Of a stretch of 55,736 bases of DNA, positions 49,352 to 54,453 are shown in pieces. The position numbers and the translations under genes are program-made. The stretch covers positions 1-55,736 of the forward strand of contig JAUYKM010000014.1 in NCBI GenBank assembly GCA_030699125.1, given 5' to 3'. Source of the DNA: Candidatus Daviesbacteria bacterium. Its GTDB lineage: Bacteria; Patescibacteriota; Microgenomatia; Daviesbacterales; UBA10151. The stretch's first letter is position 1. Each line of letters starts with the position of its first letter. The notes under the pieces are model-generated. The model searched no databases and was not told the origin of the DNA. It saw nothing but the letters and a program-made list of their open reading frames with translations.

Positions 49352-50194
49352 ATGTCAATGAACTATGAAAGAGCTTCACAAGGGATTTTAGAAGCAGACG
49401 CAGTAAAATATGCTGAAGGTATAAGGGAAATGAATGCTCTTGCTAATTCTTTACAGAGGGAGGGTAAATTACCAGTAGAATTTTCAGAGCCTGTTATTGA
49501 AACACCGACAGCTGTAGTAACTCCTGCGCTACAAGACAGACAACTTAGAGATGCTCTTCGTCCTTTTGTACAAGAATACAAAGATGCAAAAGTCCATACT
49601 CCGGAATTAGTTGATCATACTTGGCAAAATATGTGGGGAGAAATAGGAAGAGCTGTTGATTTTAAATATCAAGTCCCATCTTGTGATCGCGCTAGAGAAG
49701 AATTAGCACAGTTAAGAAAAGAGAATAAAGCAGTCTTACTTTTGCCGGATGATATATTTACCCCCGAAGGGTTAGTGAGATTTGGTAGAGCCTTTCCTTT
49801 AATGAGAAGTTGGACTACTGATCCAGAACATGCGGCAAAAATTTCATATGGATCAAACATCGGCGGTTGTATTGATATTGAGATGAGCCTTGATGCTCCT
49901 TATAGAACTTCCAAGGGATACAAACAAAAAGAATTAGTAGATAAAATTGCAGCTGATAAAAGAGCTGGCCAAAGATTACCAACCTACTTTGTTGGTTCGG
50001 AGTTCAGCCAACTTTTAACTGGACACTATTTTGATGAGAATACTTGGTCAAGACTCCCTGAGTCTTTCAGCGAGGGCAGCATGTTGGTTGCTCACTTCCG
50101 CTCAGATGGTAGCGCGGATGTCAACGCCTACTGGCATCCTGAGCTTCGGAGTCCGGACTTGGGTGGGCGTTCTGAGGGAGTAAAAAGAGCTTAA
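49352..50194 (+). CDS. DGR target protein with C-terminal variable region (probably CLec fold)
   Basis: VR covers 40 codons at the C-terminus; ends LGGRSEGVKRA. Confidence 0.92.
   Translation: MSMNYERASQGILEADAVKYAEGIREMNALANSLQREGKLPVEFSEPVIETPTAVVTPALQDRQLRDALRPFVQEYKDAKVHTPELVDHTWQNMWGEIGRAVDFKYQVPSCDRAREELAQLRKENKAVLLLPDDIFTPEGLVRFGRAFPLMRSWTTDPEHAAKISYGSNIGGCIDIEMSLDAPYRTSKGYKQKELVDKIAADKRAGQRLPTYFVGSEFSQLLTGHYFDENTWSRLPESFSEGSMLVAHFRSDGSADVNAYWHPELRSPDLGGRSEGVKRA
50057..50177 (+). repeat. DGR variable repeat (VR)
   Basis: 121 bp, aligns without gaps to 50497-50617; 19 mismatches, all opposite TR adenines. Confidence 0.96.
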
Positions 50195-50405
50195 ATCTTT
50201 GACCTTTTGATCTTCTTTGTTCCTTTGAACTTCTGTTTTTTTCTGCTATGCTAAATTTGAAAGTAGGTTAATGCATCTCTCCTCAAGTGAGGATTGGTCA
50301 CCGAAATTATTGTTTTTCAACAAACTGTCAGAATTTCATAGTCCATGGACTATGAGAGAGTACACTAGAAAGACAAGACACTCCTTGTTTGATACTGGTG
50401 GAGAT

Positions 50406-50426
50406 GTCCTGAGCTTGTCGAAGGAC
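50406..50426. repeat. Family C repeat upstream of TR
   Basis: GTCCTGAGCTTGTCGAAGGAC. Confidence 0.7.
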
Positions 50427-50496
50427 TACTCCCGGATAAAATACAGTGGTAAGAGAAATCAAACCGCAGTGGAAAAGAAGGTATCAGACAAATAAA

Positions 50497-50617
50497 CCTG
50501 AGTCTTTCAACGAAGGCAGCATGTTGAATGCTAACTTCAACTCAGATGGTAACGCGAATGTCAACAACAACTGGAATCCTGAGAATCAGAATCCGAACTT
50601 GGGTGGACGTTCTGAGG
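50497..50617 (+). ncRNA. DGR template repeat (TR)
   Basis: 13 AAY codons and 37 adenines; matches VR at every non-A position. Confidence 0.95.
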
Positions 50618-50632
50618 TAGAGTCTTGTCTCT

Positions 50633-51055
50633 CTATATTGTTTTTAGGGATTTTCTCCACCCTCCAAGCATCCGACCGATCTCTTGGAGGGAAGATTCAA
50701 GCTGTAGATATTTTTTGTTATCTAGTGCTTGGATATCTTTTGCAAGCCTTATTAGGATTTTTAGGAGATCTAAGGAAACAATACTCTTTTCAATTATAGG
50801 CAACTTTCTCTCTTGGGTTAAGTTCCCTGCCATAATAATTAATTCAAATAGTTCCAGAGTGAGATTATCCAGCCTTTGACCCAAGCTGTAGCGGTCTTTT
50901 TTAGGGAAGAGTTTTAAGTACTGATACAATAACTTGTAGAAGTCGTAAATTTTTTGAAATATGGGGATATTAAAATCGTTACCTGTCCTGTCCTGTCCTG
51001 TCCTGTCCTGTCCTGTCCTGTCCTGTCCTGAGCCCTCGCTTGGGTAATTATTCAT
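50633..51055 (-). CDS. avd: DGR accessory variability determinant (four-helix bundle)
   Basis: IPIFQKIYDFY...FPKKDRYSLGQR...LIRLAKD...EIGRMLGGW; lies between TR and RT. Confidence 0.9.
   Translation of the reverse strand: MNNYPSEGSGQDRTGQDRTGQDRTGNDFNIPIFQKIYDFYKLLYQYLKLFPKKDRYSLGQRLDNLTLELFELIIMAGNLTQERKLPIIEKSIVSLDLLKILIRLAKDIQALDNKKYLQLESSLQEIGRMLGGWRKSLKTI
50982..51030. repeat. Perfect pentanucleotide microsatellite (CCTGT)x9.8 in the avd 5' coding region
   Basis: 49 bp; encodes (GQDRT)x3. Confidence 0.97.
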
Positions 51056-52078
51056 ATGTTGTATTCCCAGCTTATCTCAATTGAACACTTGTTACAAGCC
51101 TGGGAGGAGTTTAAAGTTGGTAAAAGAAACAAATCTGATGTCCAAAACTTTGAAAGAAATCTTGAGAACAGTCTGTTTTCCCTTCACCGCGACTTGAAAG
51201 AGAGAGTTTACCAGCATGCCAGCTATACGGCTTTTAATATTTATGATCCAAAATTCCGCCATATCCATAAAGCTAGAGTTCGAGATAGAATCGTTCATCA
51301 TGCAGTAGTTTCTTTAATTGAGCCTCTTTTTGATAAAACTTTTATCTATGACTCTTATTCTTGTCGGGATAATAAGGGTAGTCATAAAGCAGTTACCAGA
51401 TTGGCCATTTTCATAAGAAAGATCAGCAAAAACTATACTGGGAACTGTTTTGTTTTAAAACTAGACGTAAAGAAGTTTTTTGCCAATGTTAACCAAACTA
51501 TTTTATTTGATTGCATCAAAAAGAGAGTGGAGGATCCGGATCTCCTCTGCTTGATTAAAAATATTCTTGGTAGTTTTTCCAATAATACTGGTATTCCAAT
51601 TGGTAATCTAACTTCACAAATATTTGCCAATATTTATCTAAATGAGCTGGATCAATTTGTAAAGCATGTCCTAAAAGAAAAGTACTACATCCGTTATTGT
51701 GATGATTTTACTATTGTTTCACCCACCAAAAGGCATCTAGAAAACCTAATCCCTCAAATAGAAACCTTTCTTAATGAAAAACTCAGATTATCATTGCACG
51801 AAGGTAAAATAGTTATCAGAAAATATACTCAAGGGGTAGATTTCCTCGGTTATATTATCATGCCCCATGTGATTTTACCTCGGACAAAAACTAGAAGAAG
51901 GGTTTTTAAAAAACTTAGAGAAAAGATTAATAATCTACAAACGGGGATAGTTTCGGAAGGATCATTTAATCAGTCACTGCAATCATACTTAGGATATTTA
52001 GGTCATGCCAATAGTTATAAACTCACTCAAAAACTAAAAAATCAAATTTGGATTTGGGAATCAAAGAGTAATAATTAG
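51056..52078 (+). CDS. DGR reverse transcriptase
   Basis: RDRIVHHA, LKLDVKKFF, GIPIGNLTSQ, YIRYCDDF, DFLGY; no maturase or endonuclease domain. Confidence 0.95.
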   Translation: MLYSQLISIEHLLQAWEEFKVGKRNKSDVQNFERNLENSLFSLHRDLKERVYQHASYTAFNIYDPKFRHIHKARVRDRIVHHAVVSLIEPLFDKTFIYDSYSCRDNKGSHKAVTRLAIFIRKISKNYTGNCFVLKLDVKKFFANVNQTILFDCIKKRVEDPDLLCLIKNILGSFSNNTGIPIGNLTSQIFANIYLNELDQFVKHVLKEKYYIRYCDDFTIVSPTKRHLENLIPQIETFLNEKLRLSLHEGKIVIRKYTQGVDFLGYIIMPHVILPRTKTRRRVFKKLREKINNLQTGIVSEGSFNQSLQSYLGYLGHANSYKLTQKLKNQIWIWESKSNN

Positions 52079-53818: not shown

Positions 53819-54073
53819 ATGACTTATACAGTTTCCATTACCTCCCAGGGACAAATCAGTATTCCGGCCAAGTTTCGAAAAGAAATGGGTTTAAATAAAG
53901 GTGGTAAAGTTATTCTCTCCAAAGAGTCTGATAGGCTAATACTTGAGCCTGTTGTGGATTTTTTAAGTCTTAAAGGATCTCTTAAAAGCAACAAAAAACC
54001 GCTTTCAAATAAGGAGCTGGATGAGTTTGTAGCCAAAACAGTAGCAAAGGAATATGCACAAAAGCTTAAATGA
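53819..54073 (+). CDS. AbrB/MazE-type antitoxin
   Basis: ITSQGQISIPAKFRKEMGL. Confidence 0.9.
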   Translation: MTYTVSITSQGQISIPAKFRKEMGLNKGGKVILSKESDRLILEPVVDFLSLKGSLKSNKKPLSNKELDEFVAKTVAKEYAQKLK

Positions 54074-54453
54074 AACTAGTTGTTGCTGACACAAATGCTT
54101 TTCTCAGATTTCTTCTCAATGATATTTCAGAGCAGGTAAAAAAATTTGAAAAAATCCTAAAGCAAGCACAAAAATCTGAAATTATAATTGTTGTTCCACA
54201 AATAATAATTTTCGAGCTAAATTTTATCCTGAGTAAGTATTATCTTTTTCCAAAGCAGGATGTTGTTGAAAAGCTTCAATCAATCATAAAAACTCCTTAT
54301 TTTAAAATTCAGGATATTGAGATTTTTAGAGAAGCTATAAAGCTTTATGCTAAATCTAATCTATCTTTAGCTGACTCATTTGTTTACTACTACTGCGAAG
54401 CTTGGAAAGCTGATCTTTTTACCTTCGATAAAAAATTAAGCAATTTAAAGTAA
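54070..54453 (+). CDS. vapC: PIN-domain toxin (VapC-like)
   Basis: DTNAFLR, E, SLADS, TFDKKL. Confidence 0.88.
   Translation: MKLVVADTNAFLRFLLNDISEQVKKFEKILKQAQKSEIIIVVPQIIIFELNFILSKYYLFPKQDVVEKLQSIIKTPYFKIQDIEIFREAIKLYAKSNLSLADSFVYYYCEAWKADLFTFDKKLSNLK

What the first reader, a model, noticed from the sequence alone, without database searches (positions are those of the whole stretch)
50618..51100. Inverted avd, head-to-head with RT at zero spacing and antisense to the TR 3' flank
Seen: target, TR and RT are on the + strand, but avd is on the - strand. The two start codons abut as CAT|ATG (51053-51058), and the avd stop lies 15 nt past the end of TR. Established: in model DGRs avd, TR and RT are co-oriented, and RNA 3' of TR is needed for priming. 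Inference: the avd promoter must lie inside RT, RT is transcribed from or through avd, and the TR 3' flank is the antisense of avd mRNA. Convergent-transcription or antisense control is therefore possible. The microsatellite also sits 25 nt upstream of the RT ATG and could tune RT expression.
Basis: partly seen in the sequence, partly recalled or inferred. Interest (0 to 1): 0.78.

Follow-up and report, generated by a model that had tools for sequence, protein, structure and literature searches.

The report
Slippery repeat switch in a DGR
The backwards-facing avd gene is the normal layout for this group of bacteria, but the five-letter repeat inside its first codons is one case of a widespread, length-variable repeat that probably switches the gene-diversifying machine on and off at random.

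Summary
Target, VR, TR and RT are on +, avd is on -, the starts abut as CAT|ATG, and the avd stop lies 15 nt past TR. The layout is not new: Wu et al. 2018 call it architecture B3, TR-(avd)-RT, and give it 90% of their CPR set. I found it in 159 of 180 related loci.

The new part is the microsatellite. (CCTGT)9.8 lies inside the avd ORF, between its ATG and the Avd domain. Of 145 distinct related loci, 98 carry a simple repeat at this same spot. The units are poly-G, GT, AG, CTGT, CCTGT and one 7-mer, never a multiple of three. Repeat density there is about 49 times that of the rest of the loci. Copy number differs in 3 of 8 locus groups whose flanks are identical. One unit opens or closes the avd frame, and in one pair the RT frame too.

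Best reading (0.6): a slipped-strand phase-variation switch on the DGR accessory module. Caveats: in-frame states are no commoner than 1/3, no reads span the repeat, and no RNA data exist.

A covariation-supported RNA domain lies 5' of TR, with a helix closing at the avd stop.

The parts
49352..50194 (+). DGR target gene (280 aa, no Pfam, NCBIfam or PDB sequence match) with the variable region at its 3' end
   Evidence: ORF. No family hits. It contains the VR.
50057..50177 (+). Variable repeat (VR)
   Evidence: 121 nt, 84% identical to TR. All 19 differences fall at TR adenines.
50366..50496 (+). Conserved structured RNA domain 5' of TR. It holds the 5' arm of long-range helix P1 (about 50374-50384), a conserved AAUACAG motif (about 50439-50446) and hairpin P2 (50446-50450 paired with 50463-50467). 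It overlaps a 74-aa ORF that is probably not a gene.
   Evidence: RNAalifold and pair counts on 17 subclade sequences: 95% of cells paired against 37-51% when slid; 44 double-change cells against 7-11; 0 of 500 shuffles reach the observed value. P2 covaries in 52 diverse loci. No Rfam match. The ORF has no family hit.
50497..50617 (+). Template repeat (TR)
   Evidence: It is the only TR/VR pair in the genome.
50616..50635 (+). 3' arm of helix P1. It spans the last bases of TR and the 15-nt gap, and reaches the avd stop codon.
   Evidence: Inverted repeat I2. The MFE fold has z = -4.43. Covariation.
50633..51055 (-). avd accessory gene, in frame from its ATG in this assembly ('ON'). The domain is aa 31-136. 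The N-terminal 29 residues are an extension that contains the repeat.
50982..51030 (.). (CCTGT)9.8 simple sequence repeat, read as (ACAGG)n in the avd sense. It lies inside the avd ORF and ends 25 nt upstream of the RT ATG. This is the proposed slipped-strand switch.
51027..51044 (+). Short stem-loop followed by a T-rich run, lying between the repeat and the RT start. It is a consensus match only and its function is unknown.
51056..52078 (+). DGR reverse transcriptase. Its ATG abuts the avd ATG.
   Evidence: The GNLTSQ block is invariant in 15 relatives.

Best explanation
The locus is an ordinary DGR of the type found in the candidate phyla radiation (CPR, Patescibacteria), architecture B3. 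The order is target/VR, a structured RNA domain, TR, then avd on the opposite strand head-to-head with RT.

The (CCTGT)n tract lies in the first codons of avd and is a contingency repeat. Slipped-strand mispairing during replication adds or removes 5-nt units. Only one copy number in three keeps the avd ATG in frame with the Avd domain. With 9 units, this assembly is in frame.

Avd is the RT cofactor in the model DGR (recalled knowledge). Under this reading the repeat turns mutagenic retrohoming on and off at random in a population. The same tract lies 11-29 nt upstream of the RT start in most relatives and inside the RT ORF in some. It may therefore also set RT expression.

Shown: where the repeat sits, that a repeat is conserved at this position, that the repeat type turns over, that copy number is polymorphic, and what that does to the ORFs.

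Inferred: that the upstream ATG is the real avd start, that switching happens within populations, and that Avd loss stops the DGR.
For: 1. Position. The repeat lies between the avd ATG and the Avd domain. Repeat-free relatives start avd a few codons before the same domain, often at a CATATG junction.

2. Recurrence. 108 of 159 B3 loci, or 98 of 145 distinct loci, have a repeat at this junction. Density is 108 repeats in 14,304 nt at the junction against 105 in 678,539 nt elsewhere in the same loci. Poly-G/C tracts of 8 nt or more number 64 against 2, Fisher p = 2.5e-105.

3. Unit sizes. In the 108 junction repeats the units are 1 nt (64), 2 nt (26), 4 nt (6), 5 nt (11) and 7 nt (1). None is 3, 6 or 9 nt.

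4. Turnover. On the RT tree the repeat class changes at least 33 times. All 30 rows of the window's clade carry a repeat, with AC, ACAGG and CAGA types intermixed. This points to selection for slipperiness rather than for a particular sequence.

5. Polymorphism. Of 8 groups of loci with 150-nt flanks identical on both sides, 3 differ in copy number: 7 vs 8, 10 vs 13 and 14 vs 15.

6. Consequences for the ORFs.
- L119 (8 units) has a 136-aa avd from its ATG. L118 (7 units) has only a 96-aa ORF from an internal TTG.
- L174 keeps both avd and RT open through the repeat. L177, with one more unit, truncates both.

7. No alternative start. 59 of 77 out-of-frame loci have no ATG, GTG or TTG between the repeat and the Avd domain.

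8. One related genome has six cassettes. Five carry their own repeat, and their frame states differ: one is in frame and four are out of frame.
Against: - In-frame states are not enriched. 29 of 98 distinct loci are in frame using any start (p = 0.46 against 1/3). Only 18 of 98 are in frame from an ATG, which is below 1/3 (p = 0.0012). This is what neutral drift of a switch would give. It is also what irrelevance of the frame would give.
- 18 of 77 out-of-frame loci do have a TTG, GTG or ATG just after the repeat that could serve as the start.
- In many poly-G loci the tract is followed by a TAnnnT box and, about 7 nt later, the RT ATG. That fits a promoter-spacer role for RT instead.
- No read-level evidence exists for length heterogeneity, and there is none at all for the window's own population. 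The nearest relative, L101 (91% RT identity), has the same 9 units.
- No expression data exist.
- The repeat is always G-rich or GT-rich on the RT strand (64 of 64 poly-G). Slippage alone does not explain this.
Confidence: 0.6

Rival explanations
1. The repeat mainly tunes RT and not avd. It would lie in the spacer or upstream part of a promoter for a leaderless or short-leader RT mRNA, or in its 5' UTR, so that tract length sets RT transcription or translation.
For: The repeat ends 11-19 nt before the RT ATG in most relatives, and 25 nt before it in the window (29 nt from the last complete unit, as measures it). 25 of 70 loci have a TAnnnT box 4-9 nt upstream of the RT ATG, and many poly-G loci read G(n)-TAnnnT-7 nt-ATG. 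The tract is strand-specific, 64 of 64 G on the RT strand. In-frame avd states are not enriched.
Against: In the window and its clade the repeat runs up to or across the place where a -35 element would lie. Adding units would therefore not change the spacing between -35 and -10 (reading). The promoter scan calls nothing at the junction. Units that are multiples of three are absent. Most out-of-frame loci lack an alternative avd start. In the AG class the repeat lies inside the RT ORF rather than upstream of it. This rival is not exclusive with the best explanation.
Confidence: 0.2
2. The repeat is a tolerated mutational by-product of a head-to-head gene junction and has no regulatory role. Avd would be made regardless, by non-canonical initiation or by slippage during transcription or translation.
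For: The in-frame fraction is about 1/3, as expected if the frame does not matter. Some loci have TTG or GTG after the tract. Transcriptional slippage on long homopolymers is known in other bacteria (recalled).
Against: Density is about 49-fold higher than elsewhere in the same loci, poly-G/C tracts are roughly 1500-fold enriched in AT-rich genomes, and the repeat type has been replaced repeatedly at one position. The window's clade has no canonical start downstream of the tract. Penta- and tetranucleotide units are poor substrates for RNA-level slippage (inference).
Confidence: 0.12
3. Antisense or convergent-transcription control is the key feature. TR RNA would read through avd in antisense, and the divergent promoters would interfere with each other.
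For: Geometry only. With abutting starts, each promoter must lie in or beyond the other gene. TR ends 15 nt from the avd stop.
Against: The conserved RNA structure lies 5' of TR and closes at the avd stop, so no antisense overlap is required. No RNA data exist. The layout is the family norm, so it explains nothing specific to this locus.
Confidence: 0.06
4. The tract or the junction is an assembly artefact.
For: Public contigs of the likely source run break on both sides of the tract, at 50973 and 51038, so the copy number is unverified.
Against: The same junction with a repeat occurs in more than 100 independent assemblies from many studies. Among them is a 91%-identical relative with the same unit and flanks. 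Contigs of related strains in another study also stop at 50973.
Confidence: 0.02

Closest known systems
DGR cassette architecture B3, TR-(avd)-RT (Wu et al. 2018, NAR, PMC5758913)
   Same: The order and orientation of target/VR, TR, reversed avd and RT are the same. It occurs in CPR/Patescibacteria genomes.
   Different: The layout does not differ. The passages I read do not mention a repeat at the avd/RT junction or an RNA domain 5' of TR.
Bordetella phage BPP-1 DGR (the model system)
   Same: It has the same parts: an RT with the GxxxSQ block, an Avd four-helix-bundle cofactor, A-specific TR-to-VR mutagenesis and a VR at the 3' end of the target.
   Different: In BPP-1, avd, TR and brt are co-oriented, and the RNA needed for priming lies 3' of TR (recalled). 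Here avd is reversed, the conserved RNA domain lies 5' of TR, and a repeat sits in the 5' end of avd.
Simple-sequence-repeat contingency loci (Neisseria, Haemophilus, Campylobacter phase variation)
   Same: The repeats have non-triplet units or are G/C homopolymers in the 5' end of an ORF or in a promoter. They are strongly over-represented in an AT-rich genome, differ in copy number between near-identical strains, and show ON and OFF reading frames.
   Different: Known contingency genes are mostly surface structures and restriction-modification systems (recalled). Here the switched gene belongs to a targeted hypermutation machine. Reversible switching has not been observed.
Haemophilus influenzae hifA/hifB divergent promoter with (TA)n (recalled)
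   Same: One repeat lies between two divergently transcribed genes and can affect both.
   Different: In hifA/hifB the repeat is intergenic, in the -35/-10 spacer. Here the start codons abut or overlap and the repeat lies inside one or both ORFs.

Membership tests
Diversity-generating retroelement | TR/VR pair whose differences fall at TR adenines | tested here: met
   19 of 19 differences fall at TR-A over 121 nt. It is the only such pair in the genome.
Diversity-generating retroelement | Reverse transcriptase next to TR, with the DGR-type GxxxSQ block | tested here: met
   RVT_1 match at 2e-25. G183-N-L-T-S-Q188 is invariant in 15 relatives. That this motif is diagnostic of DGR RTs is recalled. 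No DGR-specific RT model was available; other RT families score below their cutoffs.
Diversity-generating retroelement | Avd accessory protein | tested here: met
   NCBIfam NF033474 at 86.7 bits, at or above the cutoff of 80. Pfam PF22296 at 75.8 bits, above the cutoff of 40.
Diversity-generating retroelement | Ongoing mutagenic retrohoming | not testable with these tools
   Only contigs were available. One contig in a second sample ends 2 nt before the VR, which is a weak hint at most.
Architecture B3 (Wu et al. 2018) | Core order TR-(avd)-RT with avd on the reverse strand | tested here: met
   The same order is found in 159 of 180 related loci.
SSR-mediated phase-variable (contingency) locus | Repeat with a non-triplet unit in the 5' part of an ORF or in its promoter | tested here: met
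   A 5-nt unit lies 25 nt after the avd ATG. None of the 108 junction repeats has a unit of 3, 6 or 9 nt.
SSR-mediated phase-variable (contingency) locus | Copy number differs between otherwise identical or near-identical strains | tested here: met
   3 of 8 identical-flank groups of relatives differ. Not shown for the window's own strain: L101 has the same 9 units.
SSR-mediated phase-variable (contingency) locus | Length change switches the gene product on or off | tested here: inconclusive
   The ORFs open and close as predicted. The real avd start codon is inferred, and in-frame states are not enriched.
SSR-mediated phase-variable (contingency) locus | Reversible, high-frequency switching within a population | not testable with these tools
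   No raw reads span the tract. The contigs break at it.

The most novel reading that the evidence does not exclude
Across Patescibacteria, most DGRs carry a hypermutable repeat in the abutting or overlapping 5' ends of avd and RT. This repeat would be a stochastic master switch for the hypermutation machine. Only a subpopulation would diversify its target at any time, and genomes with several cassettes could switch each one independently. In one subclass a single repeat unit shifts the avd and RT frames together. These DGRs would also use an RNA architecture with the accessory RNA domain 5' of TR, clamped to the TR 3' end by a long-range helix, in place of the 3' spacer of the phage model.
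Probability: 0.45. Interest if true: 0.9.

Novelty: new variant of a known kind. Interest (0 to 1): 0.78.

Why it matters
DGRs are the most powerful natural protein diversifiers known, and they are especially common in CPR bacteria. How their activity is controlled is largely unknown. A repeat-based random on/off switch on the Avd/RT module would be a second-order bet-hedging device: a mutable switch on a mutator. It would explain why many assembled CPR DGRs look as if avd were frameshifted. It would warn annotators not to call those genes pseudogenes.

It also gives a direct test. Long reads that span both the repeat and the VR, about 800-975 nt apart, can ask whether VR diversity travels with in-frame alleles.

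The RNA domain 5' of TR offers a new model for how TR RNA is presented to the RT in the commonest DGR class in nature.

Tried and rejected
- **Sequencing runs.** No RNA holder was listed, and only contigs were served, not reads. The contigs stop at 50973 and 51038, so they say nothing about copy-number heterogeneity or transcripts.
- **TR-flanking helix across all loci.** I ran RNAduplex on upstream against downstream flanks in 100 loci. The effect was small: mean -22.1 against -21.0 kcal/mol for mismatched partners, p = 0.014, with 7 of 100 below the control's 5% quantile. I therefore claim the long-range helix only for the window's subclade, where alignment-based covariation is strong.
- **Rfam.** No match in 50100-51150.
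- **PDB sequence search of the target protein.** Nothing meaningful.
- **Promoter consensus scan.** 13 sites found against 8.3 expected, and none at the avd/RT junction. This is not informative for CPR promoters.
- **Literature.** The searches were DGR + phase variation, DGR + avd + opposite, mixed SSR terms, DGR + microsatellite, DGR + homopolymer, and DGR + Avd + CPR + frameshift. I also read passages of PMC5758913 and of two 2026 preprints. None describes a repeat at the avd/RT junction.
- **Sources I could not see.** Paul et al. 2017 (Nature Microbiology), the main CPR DGR paper, is not held (the title search lists only citing papers). A prior mention there cannot be excluded.
- **Considered and rejected.** Another genetic code is not needed, because all ORFs are open under table 11. 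The poly-G tracts are not sequencing artefacts, because they are internal and occur in assemblies from many studies and years.

Full report
**1. The observation**

The window is one whole contig (C5) of a 1.13-Mb, 19-contig genome with 38.6% G+C. Relatives found by RT homology are almost all labelled Patescibacteria/CPR.

The DGR is real:
- VR 50057-50177 and TR 50497-50617 are 121 nt long and differ at 19 positions. All 19 are adenines in TR. No other copy exists in the genome.
- The ORF at 50633-51055 on the - strand is Avd. It scores 86.7 bits against NCBIfam NF033474 (cutoff 80) and 4e-21 against Pfam bAvd, with the domain covering residues 31-136 of 140.
- The ORF at 51056-52078 on the + strand is the RT (RVT_1, 2e-25). 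It carries the GNLTSQ block, which is invariant in 15 relatives.
- CAT at 51053-55 abuts ATG at 51056-58. The avd stop (TAG, 50633-35) lies 15 nt after TR. (CCTGT)9.8 occupies 50982-51030, ending 25 nt before the RT ATG.

**2. The layout is already known and typical**

Wu et al. 2018 (PMC5758913; passages read) define architecture B3 as TR-(avd)-RT with avd on the reverse strand. [quoted passage not shown]

I checked this independently:
- Among 100 loci (20 from 61 related genomes; 80 from a scan of species-representative genomes), avd lies upstream of and opposite to RT in 92. It was not found in 4 and has another arrangement in 4.
- Among 80 metagenome loci, it does so in 67. In 10 of the other 13 the contig lacks enough upstream sequence.
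- In 59 loci where both genes have an ATG, the two start codons are a median of -9 nt apart, that is, overlapping. They abut exactly in 6 loci.
- TR ends a median of 17.5 nt (IQR 6-26, n = 108) from the avd stop.

The 'inverted avd at zero spacing' is therefore the family norm.

**3. What the microsatellite is**

The tract is not merely upstream of RT. It lies inside the avd ORF, between the ATG and the Avd domain, and encodes (GQDRT)3 in a 29-residue extension. Repeat-free relatives begin avd only a few codons before the same domain, often at the same CATATG junction. The window's avd therefore looks like the short form with a repeat inserted just after its start codon.

Relatives carry different repeats at this same place. 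On the RT strand they read:
- poly-G of 8-13
- (GT)6-13
- (AG)/(CT)8-16
- (CTGT)n
- (CCTGT)7-14
- (TGGC)6
- (CGTT)9
- one 7-nt unit repeated 8 times

The census:
- 108 of 159 B3 loci have such a repeat. After removing duplicates this is 98 of 145 distinct loci.
- In the 108, the unit sizes are 1 nt (64), 2 nt (26), 4 nt (6), 5 nt (11) and 7 nt (1). None is 3, 6 or 9 nt.
- Repeat density is 108 in 14,304 nt at the junction against 105 in 678,539 nt elsewhere in the same loci.
- Elsewhere, 73 of the 105 repeats are poly-A/T and only 2 are poly-G/C. At the junction 64 are poly-G/C (Fisher p = 2.5e-105).
- Several 'repeat-free' loci have G tracts of 6-7 nt, just under my threshold.

On a FastTree RT tree of 155 rows, the repeat class changes at least 33 times and presence/absence changes at least 17 times. 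All 30 rows of the window's clade carry a repeat, with AC, ACAGG and CAGA types intermixed (support 82, below the 95% star mark). The adjacent clades have none.

**4. Evidence that the tract is hypermutable and has consequences**

Eight groups of repeat-bearing loci have 150-nt flanks identical on both sides. Three of the eight differ in copy number:
- (GACAG)7 against 8
- C10 against C13
- (TC)14 against 15

The ORF listing shows the effect on the ORFs:
- With 8 units, avd is a 136-aa ORF from its ATG. With 7 units, only a 96-aa ORF from an internal TTG remains, and it lacks the start of the domain.
- In the other pair the repeat lies inside both head-to-head ORFs. With 14 units, both the 157-aa avd and the 359-aa RT read through it. 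With 15 units, both are cut to internal starts and a 72-aa out-of-frame stub appears.

Of the 77 out-of-frame loci, 59 have no ATG, GTG or TTG between the repeat and the Avd domain. As assembled, these loci have no translatable full-length avd.

One related genome (G006) has six cassettes. Five carry their own repeat, and one of those five is in frame. The sixth has no repeat.

**5. What argues against a simple avd frame switch**

- In-frame states are not enriched: 29 of 98 with any start (p = 0.46 against 1/3) and 18 of 98 with ATG (p = 0.0012, below 1/3). This fits a switch that drifts neutrally or is mostly kept off. It equally fits a frame that does not matter.
- In many poly-G loci the tract is followed directly by a TAnnnT box and, about 7 nt later, the RT ATG. 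25 of 70 loci have such a box 4-9 nt upstream. This suggests a leaderless RT mRNA whose promoter holds the tract.
- The tract is strand-specific: 64 of 64 poly-G, 17 of 17 GT and 11 of 11 CCTGT on the RT strand.
- In the window, though, the repeat would cover the -35 region itself, so unit changes should not alter the -35/-10 spacing (my reading).

I therefore commit to 'slipped-strand contingency switch on the Avd/RT module, acting in this clade through the avd frame' at 0.6. An RT-promoter role is a non-exclusive rival at 0.2.

**6. No direct population or expression data**

Only contigs of public runs were served, and no RNA run was listed. The contigs of the likely source run stop at 50973 and 51038. 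Contigs of about 92%-identical strains from another study also stop at 50973. This is what a 49-nt repeat does to a k-mer assembler, and it gives no copy numbers. The 9.8 copies in the window are therefore unverified.

**7. The TR flank**

- The + strand at 50340-50800 folds at -141 kcal/mol, z = -4.43, with 0 of 100 shuffles as stable. The fold includes a long-range helix, found as inverted repeat I2. It pairs about 50374-50384 with 50616-50627, the end of TR plus the gap before the avd stop.
- In an alignment of 17 subclade sequences, RNAalifold recovers this helix (P1) and a hairpin (P2) about 30 nt upstream of TR.
- Pair counting gives 95% of cells paired against 37-51% when the partners are slid. 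Ten of 14 pairs have changes on both sides. There are 44 double-change cells against 7-11 when slid, and 0 of 500 shuffles reach the observed value.
- P2 and its flanking AAUACAG and CAGUG motifs are conserved in 52 diverse B3 loci, with 17-26 double changes per pair.
- Rfam has no matching family.
- A cruder duplex test of P1 across 100 loci was only weakly positive. P1 is therefore claimed for the subclade only.

The conserved RNA partner of TR thus lies 5' of it, and the structure closes at the avd stop. The TR RNA need not extend antisense into avd. The 74-aa ORF at 50271-50495 overlaps this RNA domain and has no family match. It is probably not a gene.

**8. Comparison, novelty and limits**

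The locus is a member of the DGR family and of architecture B3 (see the membership table). It works like a contingency locus, but reversible switching has not been observed.

None of my literature searches or read passages mentions a repeat at the avd/RT junction or phase-variable DGRs. The main CPR DGR paper (Paul et al. 2017) is not held, and supplements were closed, so priority cannot be settled here.

The loci are related and not independent. Counts are given both raw and de-duplicated. The tree-based change counts are minimum numbers on a FastTree topology with many weak branches.

Noticed in passing
window 50366-50635 (+); alignments A2 and A3: A conserved structured RNA lies 5' of TR. 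It comprises hairpin P2, flanked by AAUACAG and CAGUG motifs about 30 nt upstream of TR, and long-range helix P1, which pairs an upstream segment with the TR 3' end. Covariation is strong and there is no Rfam family. It may replace the 3' spacer RNA of the phage model.
   Followed up: yes
window 50271-50495 (+): A 74-aa ORF between the target gene and TR has no Pfam or NCBIfam match and overlaps the conserved RNA domain. It is probably not protein-coding.
   Followed up: partly
window 50055-50057: In a second sample of the same study (run X2), a 421-nt contig identical to the target gene ends at 50055, 2 nt before the VR starts. Nothing from that run covers the VR. This would fit VR heterogeneity breaking the assembly, but it is a single contig.
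   Followed up: no
G006: L003, L018, L181, L182, L183, L184: One related 1.1-Mb genome carries six DGR cassettes. Five have their own junction repeat (four of GT type, one of GA type), and their frame states differ: one is in frame and four are out of frame. The sixth has no repeat.
   Followed up: partly
L174 and L177; also L015, L072, L176: In the (AG)n subclass the RT start codon lies upstream of the repeat. The repeat therefore sits inside both head-to-head overlapping ORFs, and one unit shifts both frames together.
   Followed up: partly
L152 and L155, between the poly-G tract and the RT start: An insert of about 200 nt, with a GC-rich hairpin-like segment, separates the repeat from the RT start in two related loci. 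Its nature is unknown.
   Followed up: no
window 50196-50234: An 18-nt unit repeated 2.2 times lies directly after the target gene's stop codon, downstream of the VR. No role is known.
   Followed up: no
window 53819-54453 (+): Two small adjacent ORFs of 84 and 127 aa overlap by 4 nt. By eye they look like an antitoxin/PIN-toxin pair. I ran no search on them.
   Followed up: no
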